NCBI RefSeq assembly: GCF_009914755.1
Contig: NC_060941.1
Strand: one strand, 5' to 3'
Origin: the human T2T-CHM13v2.0 reference genome, Homo sapiens
DNA length: 64,000 nt
The position numbers and the translations under genes were made by a program. Shown one piece after another: positions 4,241 to 44,349 of this stretch (its first letter is position 1; every line of letters begins with the position of its first letter). The notes beneath the pieces were generated by a model that worked only from the letters and a program-made list of their open reading frames with translations, was not told where the DNA came from and did not search any database.

Positions 4241-4911
4241 GCTGGAGCTGTGCAGAATCTCTCTTCCTTCCCCCAATCCCTGAAGGAAAGTGAGCATATC
4301 AAAAGAGCTCACTAGAGCTTTTAGTTGAGAGCACAGAGGTCAAGAGGAGACCAATAATTTGCAGAAGCAGAAGTGAAGATCAACATTTTTCCTCTTTAAC
4401 AGAAACTCTGAGCAGCTGTTTCTCCCCTAAGCACATCTGAACTGGATAAGGATTGACCAGGAGGCCTTTGTAGCTCTGTGCTTGGCTTCTTGGCTCTGAG
4501 CCTTAATCAATAACCTACTCCTGATCTGTAAGACATAAAATCTCAAGGAGTGACACACTTTCCTTCTTCAAAATAGTTCTTGGAATTCCCATGGTCTAGC
4601 AATGTGATGTCAGATGATGAGATAGGCCTGGGAGGCAAAGGCAACATTATTTATAGACACCATTGTGTATAACATCTTTGTATCTCTTAGAGTCTTGAAG
4701 CCAATGTGCTTGGCACAATTAGCTGGCTTTGATTTGGGACCCAGAGCTCTCAGACTAAAACTACTCCCAAGTTTACTAGAAATAAGTCCACACTAAATGA
4801 AGTACAATTCAGAAGAAGTAGGGAATGTGGTAAAACAGGCCACTAAGAAGCTCTACAGGATGCTAAGCCAGCCATAGAATGAGTTTTTCTTGGTCAAAAA
4901 GAAGATGGCTT

Positions 4912-5052
4912 GGCTGGCACCATGGCTCATGCCTATAAATCCTGGCACTTTGGAAGGCTGAGGTGGGAGGTTCGCTTGAGACCAGGAGTTTGAGATCAGC
5001 CTGGGCAACAGAATGAGACCCATCTCTATAACAAATAAAACAACAAAAAAAG
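4912..5052 (+). mobile_element. Free left Alu monomer (FLAM_C-like)
   Basis: Single Alu left arm ending in an A-rich tail; AAAAAGAAGA on both flanks (TSD). Confidence 0.85.
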
Positions 5053-6629
5053 AAGACCTCCTAAGTCTTGAAAAAGCAGTCTTGGACAGTGTCTTGACTG
5101 GCTCTTCTCTCAATCCCCCACTAGATCCACCACACCCCATACACTGGGACAAGTGGTAGCCCTTTTAGAATAGTTTTCTGGCTCCATACTGATTCCACCT
5201 TCATCACAGTGTTGTCAAAGAACCAGACAGACCTGGTGCCTCGGGAAAGCCCTTCTGCTCTACAGACCTCAATTAAGCCTACCTGTAAAACTGGAATAAT
5301 TTCGTTGCCTTGGAGATTACTGTGAGAGTTAGGTCTCTAAAGCACCTGGCACAATGCCTTGCACATGGTCATTGCTTCCTGTTTCTCCTCCAGTTTTCCC
5401 CACCAGTTTCTCAATTCCTAATGCCAGAAATCCCAGAAGTCTGTCTGGGCTATTGCTCTGATTCAGATTCATCCACCTTCCTAGATGTTGAAGAATGGTC
5501 TGCCCACTGCATTCCTTCTAGCTGCCATTGCAATTAATCTGTGCCAATTTCCTACCCACCCCTGCTCCAAACACTGACACTGCAATCTCTGATTTGCTCT
5601 TGGGCTTCACAGTCTTGCTTGTCTATCTTGGGCTAACAACTCCATCTGAACATTCTTGAATTGCTTGACTGTTCCAGGAGGCCCTGTCCCTTAATTACCC
5701 TGTCTAATCCATCCTGTTCAGATCTGAGTTTGACTCTGCAAGGCTGCACCTCTATTTTGGGAATGATTACTGCTATGATGGTTGATTCTATTTTTCTATT
5801 TTTCATGTCCAATAAATAGAGTAATGATGAACCATGATGCAATAAATTGAATATTGAGTGTTCTTTCTATTCAGTCCCCATGTAGAAAAAAATCTTAATG
5901 AGTTCTCTATATCTATCATGAAGAGAGAGAAGTTTTCTTCCTTTTAAGCTTCTCAAGTTGGGTTGGAGATTTAACTCAGTGATCTGATTCCTGTTTCAGA
6001 AGTGTTAACACTTCTGAGTTTTGGGGGGATAGTATTATTATATATGTTTTCTCTTGTTTGCTTTTAGAGGCAGCATGGCATAGTGGAAGTAGAAAGGGCC
6101 CTTAGGATATCTGTAACATTTACCCCAGAAGAGCCAGTCATGAGAGTCTTCCCTAGAAACTAAACCTGAGAGGGAAGGAGAAAGAAGAAAAAAGGCTTTA
6201 TGCTCAGAGAAGCTCATAATCATATTATGGGATTATAGCAAAAAAACAAACAAACCAGAAATGACTTAAATCTTCAACAATAAGATAAAGGTTAAGTAAA
6301 GAACATATAATCTCCAAAAAGAGAGAGAGAGAGGAAGGAGGGAGAGAGAAAGAGAATCAGATTGACACCAGACTTTTTATAAATGACATGAAGACCATGT
6401 TAATGGAAATAAGGTAATAGGCTCAATTCTTACATTAAAGCATCAGCTTCTTGGCTTGCTTGTATCTCTAAGTATGTCCTTGTCCCCCAACATTGCGAAT
6501 GGCCTAAGACCAACACGTTCCTATTTCTGGAACAGAACTCAAAGCATGTCTGCCAGGGTCCCCCTCAGCAAGTCTGAAGTATGCCCACTGCACTTAGTGG
6601 GTATCTCCAAACCTGCCTGAAAACCTCTG

Positions 6630-9363: not shown

Positions 9364-10889
<1,526 letters not shown>

Positions 10890-12858: not shown

Positions 12859-13129
12859 AGAATTTAAGGGTAATTACAAGAATATGTAAGATAAAATGAG
12901 AAACATTTAAGTAACTTTCTTAAGGTCACGTACCAGCAAGCAGGTCACAAATATAAGAGTTATAAAGTTAAAGAAATCCAATATTTTTCAAAAGGGTTCG
13001 TATTCAACCCGGGTAGTAGTGAAATGTAAAGGGGAAGACCTGCCAATTGTGGCCTTTTTGCTGACTCTTGTTAGGTGACACCAGGCAACAGGTCTCCACA
13101 CGCACTCGCATGCGCCTGCACGCACACAC

Positions 13130-13370
13130 ACTGACGGAGAACTCAATGCACGAGAGACATCAGTCACTCAGGTTCACGATCTCATTTCATCTTCAAAATA
13201 ACTCAGCAAGGTAAGTATATTTCCCCCATTTGGCAAATGAGAAAATTGAGGCTTTGTGAGCTTACCCAAGCTTTCCAGGTTCACGCAGCAGGTAATGGGG
13301 GAATGTGAGTCAAATCCGGGTTTGTCTGATTCCAAAATCCTTGCCCTTTTGCCTACACAATGTTGCCTCC
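13130..13370 (-). mobile_element. MIR
   Basis: CCCCATTTGGCAAATGAGAAAATTGAGGCT..GGTTCACGCAGC..GTCTGATTCCAAAATCC. Confidence 0.75.
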
Positions 13371-41112: not shown

Positions 41113-42213
41113 TAGACAGTTACTTTTCATTCTTAACAGTTAAATAGCATTTCATTATCTGGATGGACTAATTTATTCAGTTCATATACTAATGGATATT
41201 TATATTACTTCCAAACTTTTGTTGTTAAAAATGATGCTGCAAAAATATTATTTTATGTATACATCATTTTGCACATCTGTGAGAATATCAGTGTGCTGAA
41301 TACCTAGCAAAATTGCTGGTTAAAACAGCATGTGCACGTATAATTTTGATGGAAATTGATTGACTAATTGCCCCACATAGAGGTTGTACCAAATTACATT
41401 CCTATCAGCAATGCATGAAAGCAACTATTTCCCCCACACTCCAATCATCCTAGGCATCAAACATTTTTTGCTTTGCCAGTGTGATAGGAAAAACATAGTA
41501 TTTATTTTTGTTTTCATTTCTATTTCTCTTCTGATTGAGATCAATCATGTTTGCACATTTGTAAGAACTATCTATATTTTCTTTCTATGAGCTGTAGTTA
41601 TTTCCTTTGCCCATTTTTGAGGATTGTTGGTCTTTTTCTTGTTAATTTTAAGGAGCTACTTATACATTAAAGTGATTGTGCCTTTGACCATAATATAAAT
41701 TGAAGATTTTTTTTTCTGATTTTAAAGCATGACTTTGTTCATGGTGGGGTTTTTGTTCTATGCAGAAATTGGATTCTATGTAACCAAATTACTCTCTTCT
41801 CCCATGGCTTCCACATATTGTTGTATTTAGGAAGGTTTTCCACATTAACAGATTATATATGTGTGTGTATTTATGTATATGCATGCATGTGTGTGTGTGT
41901 GTCTGTGTATACATCTACAACTACGGGTAACTTAACAACAGGGATACATTCTGAGAAACACATCGTTGGGTGATTTTGTCATTGTGATAACATCATAAAG
42001 TGCACTAACATGAACCCAGATGGTATAGCCCACTGCACACCTATGCTATATGGTAAAGCCCATTGCTTCTAGACTACAAACCTGTCCAGCATGTTACTGT
42101 ACTGTATATTGCAGGCAATTGTAACAAAATCTAGAAATAAAATCTTATTTCTAGAATACACTGTATTCTATACACCATATTCTACACACCATACTCAATA
42201 CACCATATTCTAT

Positions 42214-42289
42214 AGTTAGGTAAGCAAAACAAGCAATTAATATCAAACCTGCACCCCAAAAAATGTTGGTTTGTATCCTTCCTGTGCTA
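42214..42289 (+). pseudogene. Mitochondrial tRNA-Met pseudogene (NUMT)
   Basis: AGTTAGGTAAGCAAAACAAGC...CACCCCAAAAAATGTTGGTTTGTATCCTTCCTGTGCTA vs mt-tRNA-Met AGTAAGGTCAGCTAAATAAGC...TACCCCGAAAATGTTGGTTATACCCTTCCCGTACTA; directly upstream of ND2, as in mtDNA. Confidence 0.85.
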
Positions 42290-42575
42290 ATCAACCCCTC
42301 AGTTCCTATCATTATCCTCTTCACCCTCTTCACAGGAACTACAATCACAGTATTTATCTTGCACTGATTACAAGTCTGGATAGGGCTGGAAGTAAATATA
42401 CTATACATTATTCCTATCCTATCCTAGTTAAAAAAGCAACTCCCCACTTCACAGAACCCACTACTAAATGATTCTTTATACAAGCAGCTGCATCCATAGT
42501 CCTAACAGTAGCTATGATTATTAACATAAGGTACTCTGGACAATAAACAGTTATAAAAGTCTTGAACCAAACAGT
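42290..42575 (+). pseudogene. MT-ND2 5' pseudogene fragment (about 95 codons, NUMT)
   Basis: Mitochondrial-code translation MNPSVPIIILFTLFTGTTITVFILHWLQVWMGLEVNMLYIIPIL / VKKATPHFTEPTTKWFFMQAAASMVLTVAMIINM*YSGQ*TVMK aligns to the ND2 N-terminus (MNP..GT.IT..HW..W.GLE.NML..IP.L.KK..P..TE...K.F..QA.ASM..SGQW); 5-bp duplication frameshift near 42420 plus stops. Confidence 0.92.
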
Positions 42576-44349
42576 ATACACAAATAAAGTTTGTGTATCT
42601 AAAGCTATCTAAACATAGAAAATGTACCGTGAAAATACAGTATAAAAGATTTTTTAAACCAGTACACCTGTATAGGGTACTTACCATGAATCGGAGCTTG
42701 CAGGACCAGAAGTTGCTCTGGGTGAGCCACTGAGTGAGTGGTGAGTGACTATGAAGGCCTAGGGAATTACTGTATGCCCTAATGTATGACTGGCAGTGCA
42801 GTACGTTTATTTACACCAGCATCACTACAAACACATGAATAATGTGTTGCACTATGATGGTACAACAGCTATGACACCACTAGGCAATAGAAAATTTTCA
42901 GCTCCATTATAATCTGATGGGCCATCCTCATATATTGTCCATTGTTGACCTAAATATCATTATGAGATGCCTAATTGTGTATGTATGTATATGTAAATCA
43001 ATCGCATATTTTAAATCTTTATGTATTTGTTTTTGCATTAAGTTCTTTAATTTGTCTGAAATTCTTTTTGGTGTAGGTTATGAGGTTATTATTTTCTGGA
43101 GGCTCAGTTGCCTCAATGTTTATCACATAATCCACTGTTTATCCACTAATTTTAACTGGTATCTTTTTCGTATACTAAATTCTCTCATGTATTTGGTTTG
43201 ATTTGTAGGCTTGCTATTCTGTCCCAATGATCTATCTGTCTATTAATATCCAGTAACATATCTTTTAAAAATATCCTAACATTATATATTCTAAAGTTCA
43301 GCTCATCTTGTTTTGTTTCAAAAACAATCTGTTGTTAATTTTATTTAGTACTGCATTAAATTTGTAGATGAACTTAGGGAGAATCCTCTTGATTTTTGAA
43401 TTTTCTTTTTGGCCCAGTCTTTTCCTTGGCCTGAGCTTGATTACTCAAATTAATCTGTCAGGTCTAGGCCTGTTGATGTCACACCTCTGATAGGAACATC
43501 CTGGGGCAAATTGGCCTGGAGCTGTCTGGGTGCAGCAGGCTAAACTAGAGCTCAGGTGCCTTAGGGACTGGATGGAGGCAGATGAAATTGATACTAGGTA
43601 TGTAGTCAGGGGACAAAGCAGGATCATCTCAAGGGTACCAGAAGGATCTGGGTAGACTATTCTGCGGACCAGGTCTGAGGAGCTCAAAGGAATGTTGAGA
43701 ACCAGGAGAATAAAGAGAAGAGGGGTGTCAAAGGAAAGGAAGCGAACAGACTGTATGTCTCCCTATTGCAGCTCACTTAGAATCTGGGGCGTACTTTGAG
43801 GGGCTATAAAGAGCCATGGAAGACTTGGTATAGGTCAAGGTCAAGGTGAATTCTCTCTAGGTGAAAGGGCTGTGAGTACACATGCCTGGTGGAGAGTTTG
43901 TTTTGAGAGATAGAACAGTGATAGGAGAGGGCTCTAGAATAGATGTCAGATCATTTGGATTCTTTTAGTTCTAGTGTCACGACCAATTTGTTGGAGGATG
44001 GTGGGATCAATCATGTTTGCACGTTTTTAAGAACCATCTGTATTTTCTTCCTATGGACTGTGTTTATTTCCTTTGACCATGCTACTTGCCCACATTACTT
44101 GCTTGCTCATCTATAAAATCAGGTGGAGGTGGAGTAGCTCTAAGATTTTTTCCCAATGCAGTGTTTCATGGCTCTGTGATTACTTTCCAGAGTGTGAGAA
44201 AGATTCATGGCCTCAGGCTATGGGTAATATTCCCGAGTCATCTGAAGTCCCAGCCAAGGCCATGGGGTTTAAAACGTTTAAAACTTCAACCTGGTGTTGG
44301 CACATTTACAGAGTCTGGGAAACTTGAGTTCTTCATATGAAAATGCGTT

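What the first reader, a model, noticed from the sequence alone, without database searches (positions are those of the whole stretch)
42131..42589. Ancient mitochondrial DNA insertion (tRNA-Ile/Gln ends, tRNA-Met, ND2) inside a Tigger3 transposon
Seen: a ~460-bp insert splits Tigger3 between GTAACAAAAT and TTTGTGTATC, where the other copy in the window reads GTAACACAATGGTAAGGGTTTGTGTATC. The insert follows mtDNA gene order: CTTATTTCTAG (Ile/Gln overlap), TACACCATATTCTA (Gln end), tRNA-Met, then about 95 ND2 codons in the mitochondrial code. Established: this I-Q-M-ND2 order is roughly human mtDNA 4320-4760. Inference: several segments (IIIL.T, W..VW, IIPI, IIN..SGQ.TVMK) resemble non-primate eutherian ND2, as I recall it, more than modern human ND2. 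The insert would then be a fossil of an early-primate mitochondrial genome whose maximum age is set by the host Tigger3. It is diverged enough, and embedded in a repeat, that stringent NUMT catalogs could miss it.
Basis: partly seen in the sequence, partly recalled or inferred. Interest (0 to 1): 0.8.

Follow-up and report, generated by a model that had tools for sequence, protein, structure and literature searches.

The report
Old mitochondrial DNA fossil, already catalogued
A 459-base piece of ancient mitochondrial DNA (remains of three tRNA genes and the first quarter of ND2) sits inside an old repeat in an ASIC2 intron; it is real and old, but it is an ordinary dead insertion that published lists already contain.

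Summary
Window 42131-42589 interrupts an interspersed repeat exactly where a second copy in the window (9569-9596) is uninterrupted. It encodes ND2 residues 1-92/95 in the vertebrate mitochondrial code (PDB ND2 chains, E 1e-7 and 4e-11). It is G-poor like the mtDNA sense strand. It is dead: a 5-bp duplication shifts the frame, there are two in-frame stops, and no tRNA folds.

It is not new. Tsuji 2012 lists it (hg18 chr17:29043268-29043616, mt 4389-4724, age class a: after the mouse split, before the rhesus split). The 2026 pangenome catalogue lists it as numt_296 (CHM13 chr17:34638200-34638515 = window 42200-42515, chrM 4387-4690, fixed, present in GRCh38). One BLAST catalogue (Uvizl 2024) lacks it.

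The "non-primate look" is modest: 40 of 76 residues identical to bovine or ovine ND2 against 36 of 76 to human. It is best read as retained ancestral states plus nuclear decay. I could not test the Tigger3 identity or orthologous sites in other primates.

One unreported detail: both junctions carry perfect short inverted repeats (11 and 9 nt), possibly footprints of snap-back synthesis during end joining.

Verdict: already known, neutral fossil, low interest.

The parts
41930..42130 (.).
   Evidence: Aligns to 9376-9578 at 72.5-73%. Homology to the other copy ends at 42130.
42130..42155 (.). Left-junction perfect inverted repeat: arms 42130-42140 and 42145-42155 (11 nt), loop 4 nt
   Evidence: The right arm is the colinear mitochondrial part; the left arm abuts the host repeat.
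42144..42153 (+). Remnant of the 3' end of mt tRNA-Ile (CTTATTTCTA), overlapping the start of the tRNA-Gln remnant
   Evidence: Sequence read. Identity rests on recalled mtDNA and was not tested. It lies outside both published alignments.
42152..42212 (-). Remnant of mt tRNA-Gln (encoded on the other mtDNA strand). Its body is lost and replaced by a 14-nt tandem array (42156-42214, unit ATACACCATATTCT, 4.2 copies)
   Evidence: TRF; units listed. The last unit (42200-42212) is the part aligned to chrM 4387-4400 in the 2026 catalogue.
42214..42289 (+). Decayed mt tRNA-Met, 76 nt, about 7 nt longer than the mtDNA interval
   Evidence: It falls within the published alignments chrM 4387-4690 and 4389-4724. 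From 42200 to 42290 is 90 nt against 83 nt of chrM. No tRNA fold was found.
42290..42421 (+). ND2 codons 1-44
   Evidence: phmmer against PDB: ND2 residues 1-44, E 1.2e-7 to 2.3e-3 for 9 ND2 chains.
42412..42426 (+). TCCTA x3; the extra 5-nt unit shifts the ND2 frame
   Evidence: TRF. Frames: PIL is read in both frames. The published nuclear span is 5 nt longer than the mt span over ND2.
42427..42579 (+). ND2 codons 45 to 92-95, with in-frame AGG at 42529-42531 and TAA at 42544-42546
   Evidence: Read-through with X: ND2 residues 42-92 (ovine, bovine, human) or 42-95 (pig), E 4.4e-11 to 7.1e-5. Stops seen.
42576..42598 (.). Right-junction perfect inverted repeat: arms 42576-42584 and 42590-42598 (9 nt), loop 5 nt
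   Evidence: The right arm TTTGTGTAT is host-repeat sequence also present in the uninterrupted copy.
42590..42964 (.). Right half of the host repeat. It has about 10 extra nt (TATCTAAAGC) relative to the other copy just after the junction
9376..10876 (.). Second copy of the same repeat family, uninterrupted at the insertion point (9569-9596) but carrying other insertions; serves as the empty-site comparator

Best explanation
This is a fixed, non-functional NUMT. A fragment of about 435-460 bp of ancestral primate-lineage mtDNA was captured as filler when a chromosomal double-strand break was repaired by end joining. The fragment runs from the 3' end of tRNA-Ile, through tRNA-Gln and tRNA-Met, into about the first 92-95 codons of ND2. 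The break lay inside an already resident interspersed repeat, in what is now an ASIC2 intron, and the ND2 sense strand is antisense to the gene.

Capture cost the target a few bases (up to 8, GGTAAGGG in the other copy). Since then the insert has drifted neutrally. The tRNA-Gln body was lost and its end expanded into a 14-nt tandem array. About 7 nt were gained in tRNA-Met. A 5-nt duplication shifted the ND2 frame, and two stops arose. About a quarter of otherwise invariant ND2 residues changed.

Shown here: mitochondrial identity, colinearity, interruption of a repeat, loss of coding capacity. Taken from print: presence in catalogues, fixation, age class. Inferred: the repair mechanism and neutrality.
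For: ND2 identity and colinearity:
- residues 1-44, E 1.2e-7.
- residues 42-78, E 1.3e-5.
- residues 42-92/95, E 4.4e-11.

Published alignments of the same locus:
- chrM 4387-4690 to CHM13 chr17:34638200-34638515, fixed, present in GRCh38.
- hg18 chr17:29043268-29043616 to mt 4389-4724, + strand, intron, unique, age class a; class definition.
- In both lists the locus lies between the same two neighbouring NUMTs.

Empty-site comparator: an exact 28-mer at 9569-9596 and flank alignments.

Composition: G is 10.9% in the insert, against 17.9-20.2% in the host repeat and 21.5% in the window, as expected for the G-poor ND2 sense strand.

Decay:
- Frameshift unit and two stops.
- No foldable tRNA.
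- 9 of 37 positions that are invariant among the mammalian ND2 chains shown differ in the fragment (counted).

End-joining capture of mtDNA with small target deletions is the established model (passages of PMC2567098).
Against: - No mitochondrial DNA reference could be fetched, so the tRNA-Ile/Gln part (42131-42199) and nucleotide identity to mtDNA were not tested here.
- tRNA finders see nothing.
- Pfam gives no ND2 family hit for either piece. That region of ND2 is apparently not well covered for pieces this short, so protein identity rests on the PDB matches.
- The age class is one published tree inspection, which I did not reproduce.
- One catalogue (Uvizl 2024) does not list the locus.
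- Neutrality is assumed, not tested.
Confidence: 0.93

Rival explanations
1. The insertion predates primates altogether. That is Tsuji's class (o), before the human-mouse split. It would then be a fossil of a boreoeutherian-grade mitochondrial genome rather than an early-primate one.
For: - The fragment is no closer to human ND2 than to artiodactyl ND2: 36/76 against 40/76 identities.
- I found no residue in the tool-printed alignments that is clearly a human-lineage novelty shared by the fragment.
- Host repeat copies differ by 18-37%, so the host is old enough.
Against: - Tsuji 2012 placed it in class (a) by bootstrapped trees that included mouse, rat and other outgroups.
- The mouse ND2 chain is the most distant one (47.2 summed bits).
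- Few references were available, and fast primate and rodent mtDNA evolution can produce the same identity pattern.
Confidence: 0.12
2. The two perfect inverted repeats at the junctions, and the small direct duplications nearby, are not footprints of the insertion event. They arose later by replication slippage or short template switching in an AT-rich, repeat-prone stretch. Alternatively they are partly the natural acceptor-stem complementarity of tRNA-Ile, or plain chance.
For: - The insert and its flank show several independent small duplications: a 14-nt array, TCCTA x3, and 10 extra nt in the right flank.
- If about 10% neutral divergence has accumulated since insertion (a rough inference from 9 of 37 conserved ND2 residues changed), 40 arm positions would stay unchanged only about 1% of the time.
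- tRNA acceptor stems are natural inverted repeats.
Against: - Only 9 places in 64 kb have a perfect hairpin with arms of 9 nt or more and a loop of 3-8 nt, and 2 of them sit exactly on the two junctions.
- The other 7 cover 0.26% of the window.
- The left arm at 42130-42140 is complementary over 11 nt, which is longer than a 7-bp acceptor stem.
Confidence: 0.55
3. It is not a genuine human nuclear sequence but assembly contamination or a recent transfer from non-primate (for example artiodactyl) mtDNA.
For: In the second half of the fragment, the ND2 chains that I recall as ovine, bovine and porcine score about 10 bits above the human chain.
Against: - Identity to those chains is only about 53-54% (40/76; 48/89).
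- The insert is embedded between two halves of one nuclear repeat.
- It is reported in hg18, GRCh38 and T2T-CHM13, and as fixed in the pangenome study.
Confidence: 0.01

Closest known systems
numt_296.chrM:4387-4690 (Supplementary Data 3, row 229, of PMC13179385, Nat Commun 2026)
   Same: It is the same locus. CHM13 chr17:34638200-34638515 equals window 42200-42515, on the + strand. It is listed as reference, fixed, and present in GRCh38.
   Different: The catalogued interval is the BLASTN core (316 bp). The full insert between the host-repeat halves is 459 bp (42131-42589). ND2 homology runs on to about 42570-42579, and a decayed tRNA-Ile/Gln part lies upstream.
Tsuji et al. 2012 hg18 NUMT list entry chr17:29043268-29043616 (PMC3467031, file hg18-numts.tsv)
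   Same: Same locus by mt interval (4389-4724), strand, intron location, and position between the same two neighbouring NUMTs. It gives an age class, a: after the mouse split and before the rhesus split.
   Different: LAST-based and 349 bp long. It has no junction analysis and no mention of the host repeat.
Other old human NUMTs covering tRNA-Met/ND2, for example HSA_NumtS_427 on chr12 (mt 4440-5101) in the RHNumtS compilation (PMC3228558 supplement)
   Same: The same mtDNA region, captured in the nucleus, with a similarly diverged sequence (passages seen).
   Different: An independent insertion at another locus. Our locus is not in the part of that supplement that is held, which contains alignments of the validated subset only.
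NUMT capture by end joining as described by Hazkani-Covo and Covo 2008 (PMC2567098)
   Same: mtDNA acting as filler at a chromosomal break, with a small target deletion and an insertion into non-coding DNA.
   Different: That study classifies junctions as microhomology, blunt, non-templated insertion or target duplication. The words 'inverted' and 'palindrom' have 0 occurrences in its main text. Here both junctions carry reverse-complement copies of the adjacent sequence.

Membership tests
NUMT (nuclear copy of mitochondrial DNA) | Significant similarity to a mitochondrially encoded gene | tested here: met
   ND2 residues 1-44, E 1.2e-7. ND2 residues 42-92/95, E 4.4e-11.
NUMT (nuclear copy of mitochondrial DNA) | Colinear with mtDNA gene order across several genes | tested here: met
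   The two ND2 pieces are colinear. Published alignments span the tRNA-Gln end, tRNA-Met and ND2 (chrM 4387-4690 and 4389-4724). The tRNA-Ile end rests on recall only.
NUMT (nuclear copy of mitochondrial DNA) | Flanked by nuclear DNA, with an identifiable uninterrupted target | tested here: met
   It splits a repeat whose other copy is uninterrupted at 9569-9596.
NUMT (nuclear copy of mitochondrial DNA) | Pseudogene state (cannot encode the mitochondrial product) | tested here: met
   Frameshift, two in-frame stops, no tRNA fold.
Pre-catarrhine / early-primate NUMT | Branches from the human mtDNA lineage before the rhesus split and after the rodent split | not tested
   This comes from print only: age class a in Tsuji 2012. 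No mammalian mtDNA could be fetched. Protein identities (36/76 human, 40/76 bovine or ovine) are compatible with it but do not resolve it.
Pre-catarrhine / early-primate NUMT | Filled orthologous site in monkeys, tarsier or lemurs and an empty site in outgroups | not testable with these tools
   No primate genomes are held.
Tigger3 (Golem) DNA transposon as host | Similarity to the family consensus | not testable with these tools
   No Dfam or Repbase is held. The family exists in Repbase (PMC5753468). I showed only that the host is a repeat with a second copy in the window.
Tigger3 (Golem) DNA transposon as host | Terminal inverted repeats at the element ends | tested here: inconclusive
   No inverted repeat of 20 nt or more joins the ends of 41850-43050. 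The copy may be truncated or too decayed.
Snap-back (synthesis-dependent / polymerase-theta-type) end-joining junction | Reverse-complement copy of sequence next to the break, separated by a short loop | tested here: met
   11-nt and 9-nt perfect inverted repeats with 4- and 5-nt loops at the two junctions.
Snap-back (synthesis-dependent / polymerase-theta-type) end-joining junction | The copied arm is absent from both donor and target before the event | tested here: inconclusive
   Right junction: the other repeat copy has the template arm but not the copied arm. However, the copied arm overlaps a stretch that could still be ND2 (pig alignment to residue 95). Left junction: the donor mtDNA was not available.

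The most novel reading that the evidence does not exclude
Both ends of this tens-of-millions-of-years-old NUMT keep intact footprints of how it was stitched in. At each junction a 9-11-nt stretch is a perfect reverse-complement copy of the sequence 4-5 nt away: of the mtDNA end on the left and of the chromosomal end on the right. That is what a 3' end produces when it folds back and primes on itself (snap-back synthesis, as in polymerase-theta-type alternative end joining). If so, this capture went through alternative rather than classical end joining. Old NUMT junctions could then be mined for such signatures.
Probability: 0.35. Interest if true: 0.3.

Novelty: already known. Interest (0 to 1): 0.1.

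Why it matters
It matters little. The locus is one of roughly 600-800 fixed human NUMTs, and it belongs to the commonest published age class. It lies deep in an ASIC2 intron, with no exon in the window, and nothing suggests a function. At about 47% ND2 protein identity to modern human it is too diverged to disturb mtDNA genotyping.

Two small points are useful. First, catalogue coverage of diverged NUMTs is uneven: it is present in a LAST-based list and a pangenome BLASTN list, and absent from one mammal-wide BLAST list. Second, the catalogued intervals (316-349 bp) understate the true 459-bp insert. The junction palindromes are a minor lead on the repair pathway.

Tried and rejected
- **Mitochondrial reference sequences for a tree or nucleotide identity: none obtained.** The search for homologous proteins with ND2 codons 1-45 and lengths 'longer' gave 3 candidates and 0 hits. 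A 23-letter tRNA-Met-region pattern found 0 stretches in viral contigs. In genome contigs it found 3 stretches, all in 62-118 kb bacterial MAG contigs, which is about the chance number, so I discarded them. PDB chains cannot be fetched as proteins. No ND2 tree was built.
- **tRNA detection: nothing.** ARAGORN bacterial mode found 0. ARAGORN -mtmam found 0 at default and only opposite-strand low-score calls at lowered thresholds, which I judged spurious. Rfam at E<=10 gave 4 unrelated weak matches and no tRNA.
- **Pfam.** No family for piece 1. Only an irrelevant DUF3379 at E 0.079 for piece 2.
- **Catalogues I could not check.**
  - Tao 2023 (PMC10671835): the held supplement text has no chr17 lines, so its File S2 was not seen.
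  - Simone 2011 (PMC3228558): the held supplement contains alignments of the validated subset only, and our locus is not among them.
  - The full RHNumtS/UCSC track, GENCODE MTND2P names and the 2026 great-ape T2T paper's supplements were not seen.
  - Supplementary Data 8-9 (primate comparison) of PMC13179385 may lie beyond the cut of the held file.
- **Age of Tigger3.** Pace and Feschotte 2007 is not held. PMC5753468 gives only the name.
- **Readings rejected.** A chance ORF, given the E-values and colinearity. Contamination from another mammal, given only about 54% identity, the nuclear flanks, and presence in three assemblies.
Full report
**What is there.** A host repeat runs up to ...GTAACAAAAT (ending at 42130) and resumes at TTTGTGTATC (42590). 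BLASTN within the window pairs:
- 41930-42130 with 9376-9578 (72.5-73% over 204-205 nt);
- 42663-42791 with 10165-10289 (81%);
- 42787-42964 with 10708-10876 (64%).

A MAFFT alignment shows the homology stopping at 42130 and restarting at 42590. The 459-bp insert has no other match in the window. Relative to the other copy, 8 nt (GGTAAGGG) are missing at the target. Fewer would be missing if the TAAAG before the right flank is host sequence.

**The insert is mitochondrial.**
- Read in the vertebrate mitochondrial code, 42290-42424 matches residues 1-44 of 9 NADH-ubiquinone oxidoreductase chain 2 entries in the PDB (best E 1.2e-7).
- 42418-42528 matches residues 42-78 (E 1.3e-5 to 2.1e-4, 8 ND2 entries).
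- With X at the two in-frame stops, 42418-42588 matches residues 42-92, or 42-95 for one chain (E 4.4e-11 to 7.1e-5, 8 ND2 entries).
- The two pieces are in different frames because TCCTA occurs three times at 42412-42426. PIL is read in both frames.
- The stops are AGG at 42529-42531 and TAA at 42544-42546.
- The insert has 10.9% G, against 17.9-20.2% in the host repeat and 21.5% in the window. This is the composition expected of the ND2 sense strand.
- Pfam finds no ND2 family for these short pieces.

**The tRNA part.** No tool sees a tRNA: ARAGORN in bacterial mode, ARAGORN in mammalian-mitochondrial mode at default threshold, and Rfam at E<=10. The assignment of 42200-42289 to the tRNA-Gln end and tRNA-Met rests on two published alignments to chrM 4387-4690 and 4389-4724, combined with the standard human mtDNA map, which I recall rather than looked up. 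The arithmetic fits my anatomy:
- 42200 to 42290 is 90 nt against 83 nt of chrM, so about 7 nt were gained in tRNA-Met;
- 42290 to 42515 is 225 nt against 220 nt, which is the 5-nt duplication.

Upstream, 42156-42214 is a 14-nt unit repeated 4.2 times. Only its last unit is in the published alignment. The body of tRNA-Gln is therefore gone and its end was amplified. The motif CTTATTTCTAG at 42144-42154 agrees with my memory of the tRNA-Ile/Gln overlap. I could not test this, because no mitochondrial DNA could be obtained.

**It is already in print.**
- Supplementary Data 3 of PMC13179385 (Nat Commun 2026; I saw supplement passages and main-text passages) lists row 229, numt_296.chrM:4387-4690, chr17:34638200-34638515, + strand, source reference, type fixed, present in GRCh38. 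Those are T2T-CHM13 positions and equal window 42200-42515.
- The file hg18-numts.tsv of Tsuji et al. 2012 (PMC3467031; I saw supplement passages and method and result passages) lists chr17 29043268-29043616, mt 4389-4724, + strand, age a, intron, unique.
- In both lists the locus lies between the same two neighbours (mt about 13121-13201 and mt about 2255-2596), so it is the same locus.
- Age (a) means that the NUMT joins the human mtDNA lineage after the mouse split and before the rhesus split in bootstrapped trees. It is the most populated class. Class (o), before mouse, has 138 members.
- The GRCh38 list of Uvizl et al. 2024 (PMC10764098, supplement part 120) has 24 chr17 rows and none between 28,974,426 and 35,654,871. 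Its two flanking rows are the same two neighbours once its mt coordinates are shifted by 577. So that catalogue lacks the locus (also 0 hits).
- In total, 2 of the 3 catalogues whose chr17 rows I could read contain it.
- Two others could not be judged: Tao 2023 and Simone 2011, where only the validated subset is held.
- The RefSeq table supplied with the finding shows no MTND2P gene in the window. GENCODE was not available.

**How old, and how 'non-primate'.** The PDB output gives no species. I recall 5xtc/9cwt as human, 5ldw/5lc5 as bovine, 5lnk as ovine, 5gpn as porcine and 6g2j as mouse. The counts below are from the printed alignments.

| ND2 residues | human | bovine | ovine | pig | mouse | source |
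|---|---|---|---|---|---|---|
| 2-44 (of 43) | 21 | 24 | 23 | not printed | not printed | |
| 45-77 (of 33) | 15 | 16 | 17 | 17 | 14 | |
| 78-92 without the two X (of 13) | not printed | 8 | 8 | 7 | not printed | |
| 2-77 total (of 76) | 36 | 40 | 40 | - | - | |

Summed bit scores of the two pieces are ovine 77.6, bovine 75.9, pig 69.7, human 67.6 and mouse 47.2 (three residues are counted twice).

Human and bovine share 43 of the same 76 positions. The fragment is therefore further from each of them than they are from each other. At 37 positions where all the printed mammalian chains agree, the fragment differs at 9.

I read this as a copy taken from the human lineage before most primate-specific ND2 changes. 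It then decayed without selection, by roughly 10% per site. That figure is a rough inference with a wide error, and some of the changes may predate the transfer. This agrees with class (a), and it does not exclude a slightly older date.

The host repeat sets only a loose maximum age: its two copies differ by 18-37%. Its family name could not be checked. No terminal inverted repeats were found in 41850-43050. Tigger3 (Golem) is a Repbase family, but the paper that dates it is not held.

**Mechanism.** Capture of mtDNA as filler during end joining of a chromosomal break, with small or no target deletions, is the established account (passages of PMC2567098). The small target loss here fits it. 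Nothing suggests a function: the locus is intronic, antisense to ASIC2, with no exon in the window, and it is decayed.

**One detail not in the catalogues.** Each junction carries a perfect inverted repeat:
- 42130-42140 with 42145-42155 (11 nt, loop 4);
- 42576-42584 with 42590-42598 (9 nt, loop 5).

In the whole window only 9 places have a perfect hairpin with arms of 9 nt or more and a loop of 3-8 nt (11 centres, 3 of them in one TA tract). The 7 other places cover 167 nt, or 0.26% of the window. Two junctions landing on such hairpins by chance is therefore unlikely, of the order of 1e-5, though the local AT-rich, tRNA-derived sequence may raise that.

On the right, the template arm is host sequence that the other copy also has. 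On the left, the template arm is the colinear mitochondrial sequence. This is the pattern left by a 3' end that folds back and copies itself (snap-back synthesis in alternative end joining; abstracts of PMC4912351 and PMC5728401 seen in the listing).

Against this reading:
- The region has several other small duplications.
- The right copied arm overlaps a stretch that may still be ND2.
- The tRNA-Ile acceptor stem is itself an inverted repeat.
- 40 arm positions staying intact over about 10% divergence would be expected only about 1% of the time, or about 13% at 5% divergence.

I give the insertion-footprint reading about one chance in three. The main text of PMC2567098 has 0 occurrences of 'inverted' or 'palindrom'. 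A search for NUMT with 'templated insertions' or 'snap-back' found no paper holding both NUMT and snap-back among the 10 of 22 listed. That is as far as I checked whether it is in print.

**Verdict.** The NUMT identity is confirmed, and the old age is supported by print and compatible with my counts. The novelty claim is refuted. It is an ordinary, already catalogued, fixed NUMT.

Noticed in passing
window 42130-42155 and 42576-42598: Perfect 11-nt and 9-nt inverted repeats with 4-5-nt loops sit exactly on the two junctions of the NUMT. Only 9 such places exist in the 64-kb window.
   Followed up: partly
window 42596-42615: The host repeat just right of the insert reads TATCTAAAGC TATCTAAACA where the other copy (9595-9604) has a single TATCTGAACA. 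This is a roughly 10-nt tandem duplication next to the junction.
   Followed up: no
window 42156-42214: A 14-nt unit (ATACACCATATTCT) repeated 4.2 times replaces the body of the tRNA-Gln remnant. Only the last unit lies inside the published NUMT interval.
   Followed up: partly
window 9627-10163 and 10290-10707: The second copy of the host repeat is itself split by two other insertions (repeat-masked stretches 9627-10163 and 10426-10699 in the hub's table). It is an empty site only for the NUMT.
   Followed up: no
window 41860-41915: A (TG/TA)-rich microsatellite-like tract lies directly upstream of the host repeat's left end. It gives weak matches to similar tracts elsewhere in the window (about 56232, about 28500).
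   Followed up: no
PMC10764098 supplement, human chr17 rows: The mtDNA coordinates in this catalogue are shifted by 577 relative to the standard numbering used by the other two lists. This matters when cross-matching NUMT catalogues.
   Followed up: partly
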